Sequence record: PX246730.1
Direction: 5' to 3' (one strand)
DNA length: 64,000 nucleotides
DNA from: a phage
Below, in pieces: positions 14,677-26,661 of this stretch. The position numbers were made by a program, and so were the translations under genes. A model generated the notes under the pieces. It did not search any database, was not told the DNA's origin, and saw nothing but the letters and a program-made list of their open reading frames with translations. Position 1 is the stretch's first letter; each line of letters begins with the position of its first letter.

Positions 14677-15158
14677 TGGTTAAAAGGGTTATTCACCCCG
14701 CTAGAGCAAAATTAGTCGGGGCTATGAAGAACTTGCAAACGGCTAATGCTCAAGTTGGGTATTTTCAAGAACAAGGTCAACATAGCTCTGGTTTTTCTTA
14801 TCCTGCTTTAATGTATTTACAAGAAGTTATTGGGGTTCCTTCAGCTTCTGGTAAAGTATATCGTAGGTTGTTTGAAATCACTATGATGCTAAACAAACAG
14901 ACCTTGTTAGAGCAGACTAAGAAGAATCTATATAAGCAACTTAGTAGTCTTAACACAGACCCTTCAAATACCTTAGAAGCATTTGCAAAGAATGCTCAAA
15001 AGGCAATTAAAAGGGGCTTTGGTAATTCTGCTATCCTCCCTCCTAACGCACCTTCCACAGTCAAGAAAAAAGGCTTTAACGCACCTCTTGTTGAGACAGG
15101 TGACTTAAGAGATAATCTTGCTTATAAAATTTCTACTAAGAAGGGTATTAAGAAATGA
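14676..15158 (+). CDS. head-tail joining protein (putative)
   Basis: position between capsid and tail genes; ATGA overlap. Confidence 0.4.
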   Translation: MVKRVIHPARAKLVGAMKNLQTANAQVGYFQEQGQHSSGFSYPALMYLQEVIGVPSASGKVYRRLFEITMMLNKQTLLEQTKKNLYKQLSSLNTDPSNTLEAFAKNAQKAIKRGFGNSAILPPNAPSTVKKKGFNAPLVETGDLRDNLAYKISTKKGIKK

Positions 15159-15556
15159 GACTCTTAAACAGACACAGCTTTGTAGTAAAGCGTAAAGTCT
15201 CTGAAGACGGTTATTACAATGATGATGGTGATTGGGTAGCTTCACAAGATATTGTAGAGGTTAACTGCAAAGGTAATATCCAGCCATACATTAAAGGTTC
15301 TGTAAAGAACGGTACACAGATTGCTTTACCGGAAGGTATCAGGCTTACCGATACAAGAATCCTGTATACCACATATAAACTTAGAACTTCAGATGATGTA
15401 GAGTGGAATGAGTCTGATATTGTTATGATTGATGGTCATGAGTATGAAGTATTTATGACTATGGATTGGTCACAGCAATTAGCCCATACGTCCCATTATG
15501 AATATATCATTATTAGAAGGGATAAAATGAATGCAGTTAGAAACAGCAGAACTTGA
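15155..15556 (+). CDS. head-tail joining protein (putative)
   Basis: synteny; overlapping start. Confidence 0.4.
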   Translation: MRLLNRHSFVVKRKVSEDGYYNDDGDWVASQDIVEVNCKGNIQPYIKGSVKNGTQIALPEGIRLTDTRILYTTYKLRTSDDVEWNESDIVMIDGHEYEVFMTMDWSQQLAHTSHYEYIIIRRDKMNAVRNSRT

Positions 15557-16130
15557 AAAAGGTCTAGTTAGAACCTTAGTGGATGTTATTGGTCACAGAT
15601 TGGCTCGTGATAAGAATAATAGACCAAATGTAATTAGAGCTTACCCTTCTGATAACTCAAATGACAAAGGTTTAAAACCTGACCAGCCATTTATTACCGT
15701 ATACTGTCAAGATGCTGCAACACCTTATGGTTGGGTTCTTGATAAGTTTGTTGAGGATGATGTAGTTTGCTACAGAATTGCTTTTCAGATTCCAGTATTA
15801 ATTACGGTAAATGGCAAAGGTGCTCACAGTATTATGCTTGAGCTTAAACAAAGATTAGAGATGAGTTCAGTCAGAGATTTAATCCTTGAAGAAACAGGAG
15901 CTACAGTACTGGACACTGGAGCAATCCCAAATGATTACACTTATCTCAATACAGATTTCGAAAATTCTGCACCTCTTGTTGTAACTCTTGTAAAAAACTC
16001 AGTCCTGAAAGATGAACGTGGAAGTATTATTGAGCGTGTCATTGTTGATGGTGAGTTAGTTTATGAAGAAGGACAAGAGCCACCAGAATATACTATCCAT
16101 CTAGATGTAGACTCCAAAGGGGTAAAATAA
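15531..16130 (+). CDS. tail completion/neck protein (putative)
   Basis: synteny. Confidence 0.4.
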   Translation: MQLETAELEKGLVRTLVDVIGHRLARDKNNRPNVIRAYPSDNSNDKGLKPDQPFITVYCQDAATPYGWVLDKFVEDDVVCYRIAFQIPVLITVNGKGAHSIMLELKQRLEMSSVRDLILEETGATVLDTGAIPNDYTYLNTDFENSAPLVVTLVKNSVLKDERGSIIERVIVDGELVYEEGQEPPEYTIHLDVDSKGVK

Positions 16131-17483
16131 ATGTGGAATCCAATTGTTAATGTAGATATTACATTGAACACCGCAGGAACTACAAGAGAAGGTTTTGGTT
16201 TGCCACTATTCTTAGCTTCAACAGATAACTTTGAAGAAAGAGTACGTGGCTACACTTCCTTAACTGAAGTTGCTGAAGATTTCGATGAGAGGTCTGCTGC
16301 ATATAAGGCTGCTAAACAACTTTGGAGTCAGACTCCTAAAGTAACTCAGCTTTATATTGGTAGACGTGCTATGCAGTACACTGTATCAATTCCTGATGCC
16401 GTTGCTGAAAGTACAGACTATTCAATTACTGTAGCTGCTGGCGGTGGAATTTCTCAACCATATCAGTATACAGCACAAAGCTCAGATACTGCTGAGGTAG
16501 TTTTGCAACAGTTTAAAACACAGATTGAAGCTGACCCAACAATCAAAGATAAGGTTTCTGTGAACGTAACTGGTAGTGGTGCTTCTACCACAATGATTAT
16601 TACTAAAGCTGGTGATAATGACTTTGTGAAAGTAACAACCACAGCACAGACTGTATATATTGCAGGTACAACTGCTGATACAGCATCAACTGCTCTGGCA
16701 GCCATTGAGGCTTATTCTACCGACTGGTATTTCATTGCAGCAGAAGACAGAACTCAACAGTTTGTCTTAGCAATGGCTTCTGAGATTCAGGCTCGTAAGA
16801 AAATCTTCTTCACTGCTAACTCTGATGTAACAGCACTGCAAGGTACAGAATTAGCCAGTGCAAATGATGTTCCAGCACAGCTTGCTAAGAGTATGTATAC
16901 TCGCACAGTTTGCTTGTGGCATCACGCAGCGGCAGAAGACTATCCAGAAATGGCATACATTGCTTATGGTGCTCCATACGATGCAGGTTCAATTGCTTGG
17001 GGTAATGCTCAGTTAACTGGTGTAGCAGCTTCTCTACAACCATCTAATAAGAGACCTCTGACAAGTATTCAGAAGTCTGCTTTAGATGCACGTCACTGTA
17101 ACTTTATTGACCTTGATGGTGGTGTTCCAGTGGTTCGTAGAGGGATTACTTCTGGTGGGGAATGGATTGATATCATCCGTGGTGTTGACTGGTTAGAATC
17201 AGACCTGAAAACTTCTCTGAGAGACTTGCTAATTAACCAGAAGGGTGGTAAGATTACTTATGATGATACTGGTATTACCCGTATTCGTCAAGTCATTGAA
17301 ACCTCTCTGCAAAGAGCAGTCAACAGAAACTTCCTGTCATCTTACACAGTTAATGTTCCTAAAGCCTCTCAAGTTGCTTTGGCAGACAAGAAAGCGCGTA
17401 TCCTGAAAGACGTTACCTTCGCAGGTATCTTAGCAGGGGCTATCTTGGATGTTGACTTGAAAGGTACAGTGGCTTACGAATAA
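16131..17483 (+). CDS. tail sheath protein (putative)
   Basis: 450 aa ORF immediately upstream of tube, chaperone pair and tape measure; order typical of contractile tails. Confidence 0.5.
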   Translation: MWNPIVNVDITLNTAGTTREGFGLPLFLASTDNFEERVRGYTSLTEVAEDFDERSAAYKAAKQLWSQTPKVTQLYIGRRAMQYTVSIPDAVAESTDYSITVAAGGGISQPYQYTAQSSDTAEVVLQQFKTQIEADPTIKDKVSVNVTGSGASTTMIITKAGDNDFVKVTTTAQTVYIAGTTADTASTALAAIEAYSTDWYFIAAEDRTQQFVLAMASEIQARKKIFFTANSDVTALQGTELASANDVPAQLAKSMYTRTVCLWHHAAAEDYPEMAYIAYGAPYDAGSIAWGNAQLTGVAASLQPSNKRPLTSIQKSALDARHCNFIDLDGGVPVVRRGITSGGEWIDIIRGVDWLESDLKTSLRDLLINQKGGKITYDDTGITRIRQVIETSLQRAVNRNFLSSYTVNVPKASQVALADKKARILKDVTFAGILAGAILDVDLKGTVAYE

Positions 17484-17498
17484 TAGAGGTAAATTGGA

Positions 17499-17945
17499 AT
17501 GGCTATGTATCAGCAATATTCCCCTAAAGACGTTGTATGTAGCTGGAATGGTATTGCCATTGAAGGCTTTGCCCCAGACTCATTCTTACGTCTACAGAGA
17601 ACATCACCACTTATCACACCAGTTGTAGGTGCGGGTGGTCAGGTTGCTCTGACAAGAAATGCAGACAAGACAGGTACTATCGAGATTGAGCTAATGCAGA
17701 CTTCTCTCTCTAACCAGATGCTTTCTGCAATTCAAGCTAAACAAGACAATATGGAACTTGAAGAAGATATCTCTTCTAACTTCGTAATCTACGACCCATC
17801 AGGCTCTGTTCTGGCAACTGGTATTAATGCTTGGTTGCAGGAATTACCACAGATTGAACTTGGTCGTGACCAGAACTCTAAAACTTGGATTTTTGGTTGT
17901 GAGAAGCTAGACTACACTTCTACAATTCCAGCGTCAAGTGTTTAA
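17499..17945 (+). CDS. tail tube protein (putative)
   Basis: 148 aa ORF between sheath and chaperones; followed by strong terminator. Confidence 0.5.
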   Translation: MAMYQQYSPKDVVCSWNGIAIEGFAPDSFLRLQRTSPLITPVVGAGGQVALTRNADKTGTIEIELMQTSLSNQMLSAIQAKQDNMELEEDISSNFVIYDPSGSVLATGINAWLQELPQIELGRDQNSKTWIFGCEKLDYTSTIPASSV

Positions 17946-17956
17946 TAAATCCTATA

Positions 17957-17990
17957 AGGGGGAGACTTTAAAAGGTCTTCCCCTTTTTTT
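17957..17990 (+). terminator. intrinsic terminator
   Basis: GGGGGAGAC ... GTCTTCCCC hairpin followed by TTTTTTT. Confidence 0.7.
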
Positions 17991-18019
17991 GTTTCTTTTA
18001 AAAGTATTAAGGAATCACA

Positions 18020-18418
18020 ATGAAAACAGAATTTAGAGTAATTAATGGTAAGAAAGTAAATATCGTTCTGCTTGGGGCAAGAGATGGTATTAAGATGTCT
18101 ATGAAGTTGGGTAAAATTGTTGTTCCAACTTTTGCGCAGATGCTGTCAAGTCTGACTGACAAGGGTAAGAAAGAAGCTCCGACGGTTCCATTCAAAGAGC
18201 TTGTTGAAGCTTGTTTTGACAGAATTGAAGAAATTAACCTTGAAGAAATGGCTACCCTGTTATTTCAAGGGGCAACTGTTGATGACTTCCCACTTAATAT
18301 TGATACGTACTTCCAAGCAAACTACGGTGAATTTATTGATTACTTAGCATTTGCGCTGGAGGCAAACTTCGGAAGTTTTTTCGAAGCAAGCATTTTCAAA
18401 AGCCTAACTTCTCAGTAA
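18020..18418 (+). CDS. tail assembly chaperone (G-like)
   Basis: small acidic ORF upstream of tape measure; slippery heptamer near 3' end. Confidence 0.6.
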   Translation: MKTEFRVINGKKVNIVLLGARDGIKMSMKLGKIVVPTFAQMLSSLTDKGKKEAPTVPFKELVEACFDRIEEINLEEMATLLFQGATVDDFPLNIDTYFQANYGEFIDYLAFALEANFGSFFEASIFKSLTSQ

Positions 18419-18420
18419 AC

Positions 18421-18659
18421 ATGGGTAACACTCTACAGACACCACTGACTGATGCTGCTGTAGAGTCAACCTATGAAGAAGCAGACGAGATGAAATTTGT
18501 GCTTGCTATTTATGGTATGGAAGGGTGTAAAGAAACACTTGACCAACTCTTTGCTATGACATTCTCTGATTTATTATCATTGAGACAATTTCTTGAAATT
18601 CAGAGGTCGTATAAAGAGGAAATTGCTTACAACGAACTTAGAAGAGCAGGAAAAATGTA

Positions 18660-18660
<1 letters not shown>
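18421..18660 (+). CDS. tail assembly chaperone -1 frame extension (GT-like)
   Basis: ORF in -1 frame relative to 18020-18418, open from about 18373; T TTT TTC slippery site at 18376-18382. Confidence 0.5.

Positions 18661-26661
<8,001 letters not shown>

What the first reader, a model, noticed from the sequence alone, without database searches (positions are those of the whole stretch)
18376..18382. Programmed -1 ribosomal frameshift site in the tail assembly chaperone
The heptamer T TTT TTC lies in frame 24 nt before the stop of ORF 18020-18418, and the -1 frame is open from here to 18660, ending at the tape measure start. This is the conserved chaperone frameshift arrangement of tailed phages and predicts a fusion protein of about 213 aa.
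Basis: partly seen in the sequence, partly recalled or inferred. Interest (0 to 1): 0.5.

Follow-up and report, generated by a model that had tools for sequence, protein, structure and literature searches.

The report
Known tail-chaperone frameshift, Felix O1-like phage
The slippery T TTT TTC is real and is almost certainly the programmed -1 frameshift that makes the long form of the tail assembly chaperone in this Felix O1-like phage, but the same site is already annotated and published for close relatives, so it is an ordinary, correct call.

Summary
The window is a Felixounavirus (Felix O1-like myovirus, 96.6% identical to Escherichia phage skuden). T_TTT_TTC at 18376-18382 is in the 0-frame register (AGT TTT TTC) of the chaperone gene 18020-18418. 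The -1 frame is open from 18340 to the TAA at 18658-18660, which overlaps the tape measure ATG. The predicted fusion is 213 aa.

It is the only one of 64 in-register heptamers in the window that extends an ORF. The same site, T_TTT_TTN or rarely G_GGT_TTT, is present at the homologous Phe-Phe position in all 11 GenBank relatives and all 80 IMG/VR loci examined, down to about 24% protein identity. Some of these lineages have no usable start codon for the downstream ORF. ATG 18421 has no Shine-Dalgarno sequence, and nucleotide diversity is lowest at the slip site and the dual-coded stretch.

There is no proximal 3' RNA structure. A strong SD-like GGAGG lies 13 nt upstream and may stimulate the shift.

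GenBank records for phages Mushroom and Moogle already annotate this frameshift, and a 2025 paper reports the conserved motif across Andersonviridae. Verdict: observation confirmed, interpretation supported, already known, no direct experimental proof found.

The parts
17499..17945 (+). Tail tube gene (context). It is the presumed partner of the -1-frame domain by analogy with lambda.
   Evidence: Pfam KPP10_Orf10 at E=3.6e-07 and phrog_280 at E=9e-48. It lies directly after the sheath gene 16131-17483 (DUF3383, phrog_205 tail sheath). The partner role is inference.
18020..18418 (+). Short tail assembly chaperone (G-like, 132 aa), the 0-frame product.
   Evidence: Pfam PF21822 Phage_TAC_15 at E=2.5e-19; phrog_1613 tail assembly chaperone at E=3.8e-47. 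It has its own SD, with anti-SD duplex energy -6.1 kcal/mol.
18358..18362 (+). SD-like GGAGG inside the chaperone gene, with 13 nt between it and the heptamer. Candidate 5' stimulator; inferred, not shown.
   Evidence: It is the strongest anti-SD pairing site in the whole G ORF (-9.3 kcal/mol), stronger than any of the 13 gene-start SDs tested. The spacing falls in the 9-14 nt range reported for -1 frameshift stimulation (PMC5009743). An SD-like core at a 9-14 nt gap is present in 28 of 37 representative lineages against 1.9 expected. The Glu codon that forms it is GAG in 20 of 25 lineages against 10.4 expected.
18376..18382 (+). Slippery heptamer T_TTT_TTC (0-frame codons AGT TTT TTC).
   Evidence: It encodes the two Phe residues that are invariant in the chaperone alignment, F120 and F121. 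It is conserved in all 91 related loci examined. U_UU.U_UU.C is among the efficient -1 motifs in E. coli (PMC4066793).
18383..18415 (+). Dual-coded stretch: the C-terminus of G (EASIFKSLTSQ) in frame 0 and the start of the extension (RSKHFQKPNFSV) in frame -1.
   Evidence: Among 35 distinct Ounavirinae sequences, G third-position diversity is 0.034 here and 0.252 in the single-coding part. The diversity minimum of the whole G-T region is at 18365-18410. The -1 peptide R-x-K-H-F-Q-K-P is kept in diverged lineages through synonymous changes.
18382..18660 (+). -1-frame extension (T-like domain, 92 codons plus stop). Together with 18020-18382 it gives the 213-aa long chaperone.
   Evidence: The part from ATG 18421 is annotated in most records as a separate 79-aa gene and matches phrog_4963 tail assembly chaperone at E=6.4e-55. 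ATG 18421 has no SD: +0.7 kcal/mol against -5.1 to -8.8 for the 12 neighbouring genes.
18660..20873 (+). Tape measure protein gene (context). Its ATG overlaps the stop of the -1 frame.
   Evidence: Pfam TMP_3 at E=7.3e-16; phrog_4036 at E=0. The TAATG overlap is visible in the sequence.

Best explanation
This is a programmed -1 ribosomal frameshift in the tail assembly chaperone gene of a Felix O1-like myovirus.

Most ribosomes translate 18020-18418 to the stop and make the 132-aa short chaperone. A minority slip back one base with tRNA-Phe on the P-site codon TTT and the A-site codon TTC of T_TTT_TTC (18376-18382). Both tRNAs re-pair with TTT TTT, and translation continues in the -1 frame to 18660. 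The product is a 213-aa long chaperone that carries an extra C-terminal domain of about 90 aa.

By analogy with lambda G/GT, the shared N-terminal part coats the tape measure protein, and the extra domain recruits the tail tube protein. The fixed slip rate sets the ratio of the two forms.

Shown here: the site, its register, the open frame, the protein families, deep conservation, the lack of an independent initiation signal, and suppressed synonymous variation. Inferred: that the fusion is actually made, how efficiently, the roles of the two domains, and that the upstream GGAGG (13 nt 5') stimulates the shift by pairing with 16S rRNA.
For: 1. Gene order is sheath, tube, chaperone, -1 ORF, tape measure, with family matches for each.
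2. The heptamer is in register, the -1 frame is open from 18340 to 18660, and the fusion is 213 aa.
3. It is the only one of 64 in-register heptamers in the window that extends an ORF.
4. The heptamer is present at the homologous position in Felixounavirus, Mooglevirus, Suspvirus, Kolesnikvirus, LPML1, rV5, CR8 and H101, and in 80 of 80 IMG/VR loci down to about 24% identity: 78 T_TTT_TTN and 2 G_GGT_TTT. The two Phe codons are invariant columns in the protein alignment.
5. In Kolesnikvirus the -1 frame has no ATG, GTG or TTG until after the conserved CKET motif, so the domain can only be made as a fusion. Start codons elsewhere are not conserved in position.
6. ATG 18421 has no SD (+0.7 kcal/mol against -5.1 to -8.8 for the 12 neighbouring genes).
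7. The diversity minimum lies at the slip site and the dual-coded stretch. The -1-frame domain is homologous across lineages.
8. U_UU.U_UU.C is an efficient -1 motif in E. coli and is used by IS elements.
9. A joined CDS for the same site is annotated in phages Mushroom and Moogle and stated in the Moogle and Mijalis papers. The conserved GTTTTT motif has been reported for 231 Andersonviridae phages.
Against: I found no experimental detection of the fusion protein for any Felix O1-like or rV5-like phage in the searchable literature.

The window has no stimulatory RNA structure just 3' of the site (-2.3 kcal/mol, z = +1.26), so efficiency may be low.

In this genus an ATG sits 2 nt after the G stop, so some independent or re-initiated translation of a 79-aa product cannot be excluded. 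Most GenBank records annotate two separate genes.

The IMG/VR loci were retrieved with a peptide pattern that required the first Phe, though not its codon. That is a mild ascertainment bias. The 11 tblastn-selected GenBank loci do not have this bias.
Confidence: 0.88

Rival explanations
1. There is no frameshift, and the two ORFs are separate genes as most GenBank records annotate them. The 79-aa protein would be made from ATG 18421, for example by termination-reinitiation after the TAA two bases upstream. The heptamer would simply be the codons of a conserved Phe-Phe.
For: ATG 18421 lies 2 nt after the G stop. The two-gene annotation is used in skuden, Alf5, VpaE1_ev78, Silverhawkium and ESh19. 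The 79-aa ORF matches a PHROG family over its full length.
Against: There is no SD before ATG 18421: +0.7 kcal/mol, worse than about 92% of positions in 15000-24000. Kolesnikvirus has no start codon before the conserved core of the domain, and LPML1, rV5, CR8 and H101 have starts at non-homologous places. A Phe-Phe dipeptide does not require a preceding wobble T plus a TTT first codon, yet 78 of 80 IMG/VR loci and all 11 GenBank loci have T_TTT_TTN. The -1 frame is open and conserved upstream of any such start.
Confidence: 0.05
2. The fusion is made by transcriptional slippage, not ribosomal frameshifting. RNA polymerase would add one extra U in the T6 run, and normal translation of that mRNA gives the identical S-F-F-R-S-K... 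protein.
For: The site is a homopolymer (T6 in the window; T7 in H101 and several IMG/VR lineages). The protein product would be indistinguishable from the frameshift product.
Against: Efficient bacterial slippage is described for runs of about 9 A or T (PMC5009743), and the run here is 6. In most of the lineages examined the last base is C, which limits the run to 6 but gives the better ribosomal A-site motif (U_UU.C > U_UU.U). Two lineages use G_GGT_TTT, a classical tandem-slip heptamer with only 4 T. The SD-like element at the 9-14 nt spacing fits a ribosomal mechanism.
Confidence: 0.04
3. It is a chance heptamer beside a chance open frame, with no biological meaning.
For: About 0.09 in-register heptamers are expected in a 25-codon overlap from the window's own rate.
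Against: The site is conserved in 91 of 91 related loci across several subfamilies. Diversity is lowest at the site. The -1 ORF encodes a conserved protein family.
Confidence: 0.01

Closest known systems
Annotated tape measure chaperone frameshift of Salmonella phage Mushroom (KP143762, CPT_Mushroom69/70) and Citrobacter phage Moogle (NC_027293, CPT_Moogle67/68)
   Same: Same genes, same heptamer TTTTTTC at the homologous position, and the same -1 extension ending at the tape measure start. Fusions are 213 aa (Mushroom) and 212 aa (Moogle). A two-piece joined CDS is annotated, and the frameshift is mentioned in the genome announcements.
   Different: Nothing material. In Mushroom the overlap stretch shown (the last 75 nt of G and its stop) is base-for-base identical to the window. 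Those annotations are also predictions by homology to Xu et al. 2004, not experiments.
Conserved -1 frameshift (TAC-N / TAC-NC, 'GTTTTT' motif) described for Vandenendeviridae and 231 Andersonviridae phages (Pseudomonas phage Adele paper, PMC12846349)
   Same: [quoted passage not shown] Andersonviridae contains Ounavirinae, the subfamily this phage belongs to.
   Different: That paper does not mention an upstream SD-like element, downstream structures or experimental detection. The present analysis adds the register, the start-codon and SD tests, and the synonymous-site signal.
Phage lambda G/GT tail assembly chaperone frameshift
   Same: The position between the major tail/tube gene and the tape measure gene. 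[quoted passage not shown] A long form that carries an extra domain. Neither product is expected in virions. For lambda the G:GT ratio is about 30:1 and is needed for assembly (PMC5009743).
   Different: The protein family differs (Phage_TAC_15). The tail here is contractile. The slip sequence is T_TTT_TTC rather than lambda's G_GGA_AAG (the latter from my own knowledge). The roles of the two domains are untested here.
E. coli dnaX -1 frameshift cassette
   Same: A tandem-slip heptamer preceded by an internal SD-like sequence at the spacing reported to stimulate -1 shifts, 9-14 nt.
   Different: dnaX also uses a 3' stem-loop and reaches about 50% efficiency. The window has no proximal 3' structure. 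Whether the SD-like element has any effect here is untested.
T4-like phage tail assembly chaperones
   Same: The same functional need for a short and a long chaperone form.
   Different: T4-like phages are reported to encode the two forms as separate genes rather than by frameshifting (as summarised in PMC10885494). The window uses overlapping frames.

Membership tests
G/GT-type tail assembly chaperone programmed frameshift (Xu, Hendrix & Duda 2004) | The two ORFs lie between the major tail/tube gene and the tape measure gene. | tested here: met
   Tube 17499-17945, G 18020-18418, -1 ORF to 18660, tape measure 18660-20873, each with Pfam or PHROG support.
G/GT-type tail assembly chaperone programmed frameshift (Xu, Hendrix & Duda 2004) | The downstream ORF overlaps the 3' end of the upstream ORF in the -1 frame, and the overlap contains a slippery sequence in the correct register. 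| tested here: met
   The overlap is 18340-18415 (76 nt). It contains a single X_XXY_YYZ heptamer, T_TTT_TTC, at 18376-18382.
G/GT-type tail assembly chaperone programmed frameshift (Xu, Hendrix & Duda 2004) | The upstream protein is a tail assembly chaperone. | tested here: met
   PF21822 Phage_TAC_15 at E=2.5e-19 (cut-off 22 bits, score 70.5); phrog_1613 at E=3.8e-47. No solved structure of a sequence relative was found.
G/GT-type tail assembly chaperone programmed frameshift (Xu, Hendrix & Duda 2004) | The downstream ORF lacks its own translation initiation signals. | tested here: met
   There is no SD before ATG 18421 (+0.7 kcal/mol against -5.1 to -8.8 for the neighbours). There is no start codon at all before the conserved core in Kolesnikvirus. 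Caveat: an ATG does exist in this genus.
G/GT-type tail assembly chaperone programmed frameshift (Xu, Hendrix & Duda 2004) | The arrangement is conserved in relatives despite sequence divergence. | tested here: met
   11 of 11 GenBank loci and 80 of 80 IMG/VR loci; suppressed synonymous variation at the site.
G/GT-type tail assembly chaperone programmed frameshift (Xu, Hendrix & Duda 2004) | Both the short and the fused protein are produced, and the fusion is needed for tail assembly. | not testable with these tools
   I found no proteomic or genetic data for this phage group.
dnaX-type stimulated -1 frameshift | An internal SD-like sequence lies 9-14 nt 5' of the slip site. | tested here: met
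   GGAGG at 18358-18362 with a 13-nt gap and -9.3 kcal/mol pairing to the anti-SD. The spacing rule is from PMC5009743. Its occurrence is enriched across lineages. The function is not tested.
dnaX-type stimulated -1 frameshift | A stable stem-loop lies a few nucleotides 3' of the slip site. | tested here: not met
   Folding 18383-18425 gives -2.3 kcal/mol, z = +1.26. There is no conserved proximal structure in Ounavirinae. Some GC-rich relatives do have one (L084: -24.5 kcal/mol, z = -4.7).
Transcriptional slippage site | A homopolymer run long enough for RNA polymerase slippage (about 9 A or T in bacteria). | tested here: not met
   The run is 6 T in the window and 6-7 T in the T_TTT_TTN relatives. 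Two lineages use GGGTTTT. The threshold is as stated in PMC5009743.

The most novel reading that the evidence does not exclude
The slip site of this chaperone family (Phage_TAC_15) is one ancient, homologous site fixed inside an invariant Phe-Phe, and its stimulators are interchangeable. Enterobacterial and many other lineages, this window included, would use a dnaX-like internal Shine-Dalgarno sequence 9-14 nt upstream and no 3' structure. GC-rich lineages would instead carry a strong hairpin about 7 nt downstream. I did not find the SD-like element described in the papers read.
Probability: 0.4. Interest if true: 0.3.

Novelty: already known. Interest (0 to 1): 0.15.

Why it matters
The practical value is annotation. 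Most deposited Felix O1-like genomes list two separate small genes here, and one record names them wrongly altogether. The correct product is almost certainly a short chaperone plus a 213-aa frameshift fusion, which matters for engineering or essentiality screens of these therapeutic-candidate phages. Biologically it is another instance of a rule established in 2004. The only mildly new angle is the candidate upstream SD-like stimulator and the apparent swapping of stimulators between lineages.

Tried and rejected
1. Proximal 3' stimulatory structure. Folding 18383-18425 gives -2.3 kcal/mol, no better than shuffles, and RNAalifold on six Ounavirinae sequences gives only -3.98 kcal/mol with no convincing helix. 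Rejected for this window.

2. A small hairpin at 18356-18372, flagged by the terminator scan just 5' of the T-run. It folds at -6.5 kcal/mol with z = -0.5 and is absent in rV5 and Kolesnikvirus. Rejected as a feature; it overlaps the SD-like GGAGG.

3. The distal hairpin at 18430-18466 as a stimulator. It starts about 48 nt after the heptamer, too far for a canonical role. It is kept only as a side observation.

4. A solved structure of a sequence relative of the chaperone: none at E<=1.

5. Experimental evidence for the fusion. Literature searches on Felix O1, rV5, Felixounavirus and frameshift found only annotation-level statements. The PhageMaP Bas63 text says nothing about the chaperone genes.

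6. An exact efficiency figure for U_UU.U_UU.C from PMC4066793. The text gives only its class (efficient; above 0.10% without stimulators), not a number.

7. Structure prediction and the large protein-database searches were not run. Family assignment was already unambiguous, and the result would not change the verdict.

Full report
**What the window is.** Megablast of 16000-21000 finds 298 phage records. The best is Escherichia phage skuden at 96.6% identity, and nearly all top hits are Felixounavirus (Ounavirinae) phages of Escherichia, Salmonella and Shigella. The local gene order on the + strand is:
- sheath, 16131-17483 (DUF3383, phrog_205);
- tube, 17499-17945 (KPP10_Orf10, phrog_280);
- a 132-aa ORF, 18020-18418 (Pfam Phage_TAC_15, E=2.5e-19; phrog_1613 tail assembly chaperone);
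- a 79-aa ORF, 18421-18660 (phrog_4963 tail assembly chaperone);
- tape measure, 18660-20873 (TMP_3, phrog_4036);
- baseplate genes after that.

**Checking the observation.** Bases 18376-18382 are TTTTTTC. The 0-frame codons are GGA AGT TTT TTC GAA, so the heptamer is in the X_XXY_YYZ register. The -1 frame is open from 18340 to the TAA at 18658-18660, which shares its last base with the tape measure ATG. A shift at the heptamer gives a 213-aa protein. Everything else is as stated.

**Chance.** In the window's ORFs of at least 120 aa, in-register heptamers occur at 0.35% of codon positions (64 in 18,119). About 0.09 would therefore be expected in the 25-codon overlap. The one at 18376 is the only one of the 64 whose -1 frame continues beyond the host ORF's stop, by 80 codons.

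**Comparative evidence.** A tblastn search with the 132-aa protein finds 445 phage records from 99% down to about 28% identity. I fetched eleven loci spread over that range: Mushroom, Moogle, Silverhawkium, EP1, ESh19, LPML1, the Kolesnikvirus phages SPARTY and Roscha1, Certrevirus CR8, rV5 and Pseudoalteromonas phage H101.
- All eleven have TTTTTTC (TTTTTTT in H101) in the same register at the homologous position.
- All have an open -1 frame that ends at or shortly before the tape measure start. Fusions are 212-248 aa.
- In the protein alignment, the two Phe residues encoded by the heptamer are among only nine invariant columns.

A scan of IMG/VR with that alignment returned 80 loci. All 80 have an in-register heptamer in the overlap: 78 T_TTT_TTN and 2 G_GGT_TTT. 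Their -1 extensions run 37-91 codons past the stop wherever the contig allowed it to be seen. The scan pattern required the first Phe but not its codon, so it biases the result only mildly. The GenBank loci were chosen without that pattern.

**Evidence that the -1 frame is entered at the heptamer rather than at a downstream start.**
- In Kolesnikvirus the -1 frame contains no ATG, GTG or TTG until after the conserved CKET core of the downstream domain. In LPML1, rV5, CR8 and H101 the first start codons lie at non-homologous places.
- In the window, ATG 18421 has no Shine-Dalgarno sequence. Its anti-SD duplex energy is +0.7 kcal/mol, against -5.1 to -8.8 for the 12 neighbouring gene starts.
- Among 35 distinct Felixounavirus, Suspvirus and Mooglevirus sequences, nucleotide diversity over the whole G-T region is lowest at 18365-18410. 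Third-position diversity of the G frame falls from 0.252 in the single-coding part to 0.034 in the dual-coded stretch 18383-18415.
- The -1 peptide just after the slip (R-x-K-H-F-Q-K-P) is retained in diverged lineages, with synonymous changes in the -1 frame (for example L044). The remaining -1 domain aligns across all lineages.

**Mechanistic details.** U_UU.U_UU.C belongs to the class of efficient -1 motifs in E. coli (H_HH.U_UU.Y). It shifts above 0.10% even without stimulators, is under-represented in E. coli genes, and is used by IS elements (PMC4066793).

The window has no stable structure immediately 3' of the site (-2.3 kcal/mol, z = +1.26), and none is conserved in Ounavirinae. Some GC-rich distant relatives do have a strong hairpin starting 7 nt downstream (L084: -24.5 kcal/mol, z = -4.7).

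Upstream, GGAGG at 18358-18362 is the strongest anti-SD pairing site in the whole chaperone ORF (-9.3 kcal/mol). It has 13 nt between it and the heptamer, inside the 9-14 nt range reported to stimulate -1 frameshifting (PMC5009743). An SD-like core at that spacing occurs in 28 of 37 representative lineages against 1.9 expected. The Glu codon that forms it is GAG in 20 of 25 lineages against 10.4 expected from local codon usage (z about 4.2). The lineages are not independent and the amino acids are conserved, so I treat this as suggestive. Kolesnikvirus, LPML1 and CR8 lack the element.

**Rivals.**
- Separate translation of the 79-aa ORF is contradicted by the missing SD, by the missing or non-homologous start codons in relatives, and by the conservation of the wobble T and the TTT codon.
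- Transcriptional slippage would give the same protein, but the run is only 6 T where about 9 are described as needed. Most lineages end the run with C, and two lineages use GGGTTTT.
- Chance is excluded by the conservation.

**Comparison with what is known.** GenBank records of Salmonella phage Mushroom (a Felixounavirus whose overlap region is identical to the window's) and Citrobacter phage Moogle already carry a two-piece joined CDS for the long chaperone. The Moogle and Mijalis genome announcements state the frameshift. A December 2025 paper on Pseudomonas phage Adele reports a conserved GTTTTT slip motif and an uninterrupted -1 frame in Vandenendeviridae and in 231 Andersonviridae phages, the family that contains Ounavirinae. 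That paper mentions no stimulators or experiments.

Most other records, including skuden and Alf5, still list two separate genes. VpaE1_ev78 also lists two, with evidently misplaced product names. The arrangement works like lambda G/GT and meets every sequence-level criterion of that class. Production of the two proteins could not be tested, and I found no experimental report.

**Verdict.** It is already known at the annotation and literature level, so interest is low. The candidate SD-like stimulator and the lineage-specific swap to a 3' hairpin are the only parts that might be new, and both need a reporter assay.

Noticed in passing
window 18430-18466 (+): A hairpin inside the -1 ORF (CTCTACAG...CTGTAGAG, -14 kcal/mol; the region 18383-18480 has z = -2.8). 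It is conserved in Felixounavirus, Mooglevirus and Suspvirus. The inner stem shows a compensatory G:C to A:T change at synonymous sites (Pro CCG/CCA against Asp GAC/GAT) between Moogle and the Suspvirus lineage. It starts about 48 nt after the heptamer, too far for a canonical stimulator. In Moogle and Suspvirus the annotated ATG of the downstream ORF lies in its 5' arm. It is not seen in LPML1 or Kolesnikvirus.
   Followed up: partly
window 17956-17985 (+), T-run to 17992: A strong intrinsic-terminator-like hairpin (13 pairs, -19.7 kcal/mol, 0 of 200 shuffles as stable) followed by TTTTTTTG. It lies between the tube gene and the chaperone gene. It would lower transcription of the chaperone and tape measure genes relative to the sheath and tube genes.
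   Followed up: partly
L084:1876-1918, also L075 and L082 (IMG/VR relatives): GC-rich distant relatives carry a hairpin a few nucleotides 3' of the same heptamer. It is strong in L084 (-24.5 kcal/mol, z = -4.7, starting 7 nt after the heptamer) but not better than shuffled sequence in L075 or L082. The enterobacterial lineages have no such hairpin, which suggests that stimulators differ between lineages.
   Followed up: partly
L002 (LR597663.1, Escherichia phage VpaE1_ev78): The product names in this record do not fit the genes. The sheath is called 'Ad1 adapter', the tube 'Ne1 neck', the chaperone 'Hc1 head closure', the -1 ORF 'Tc1 tail completion' and the tape measure 'Tail sheath protein'. 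The labels look shifted along the gene order (compare).
   Followed up: no
search hits H29 (GU169904 'Staphylococcus phage SA1'), H65 (OK283618 'Listeria phage LPML1'), H79 (MG065658 'Campylobacter phage C7'): Records labelled with Gram-positive or Campylobacter hosts carry Felix O1-like tail modules (SA1 is 94.7% identical in DNA to the window; LPML1 is classified in Ounavirinae) or an rV5-type chaperone match (C7). The host labels are probably wrong, or the records contain contaminating sequence.
   Followed up: no
window 18394-18397 (+): A second, weaker potential slip motif, the tetramer T_TTC (codons ATT TTC), lies in the perfectly conserved stretch after the heptamer. A shift there would give a slightly different junction (...EASIF-QKPNF...). 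Such tetramers are reported to be barely shifty without a stimulator, so it is probably irrelevant.
   Followed up: no
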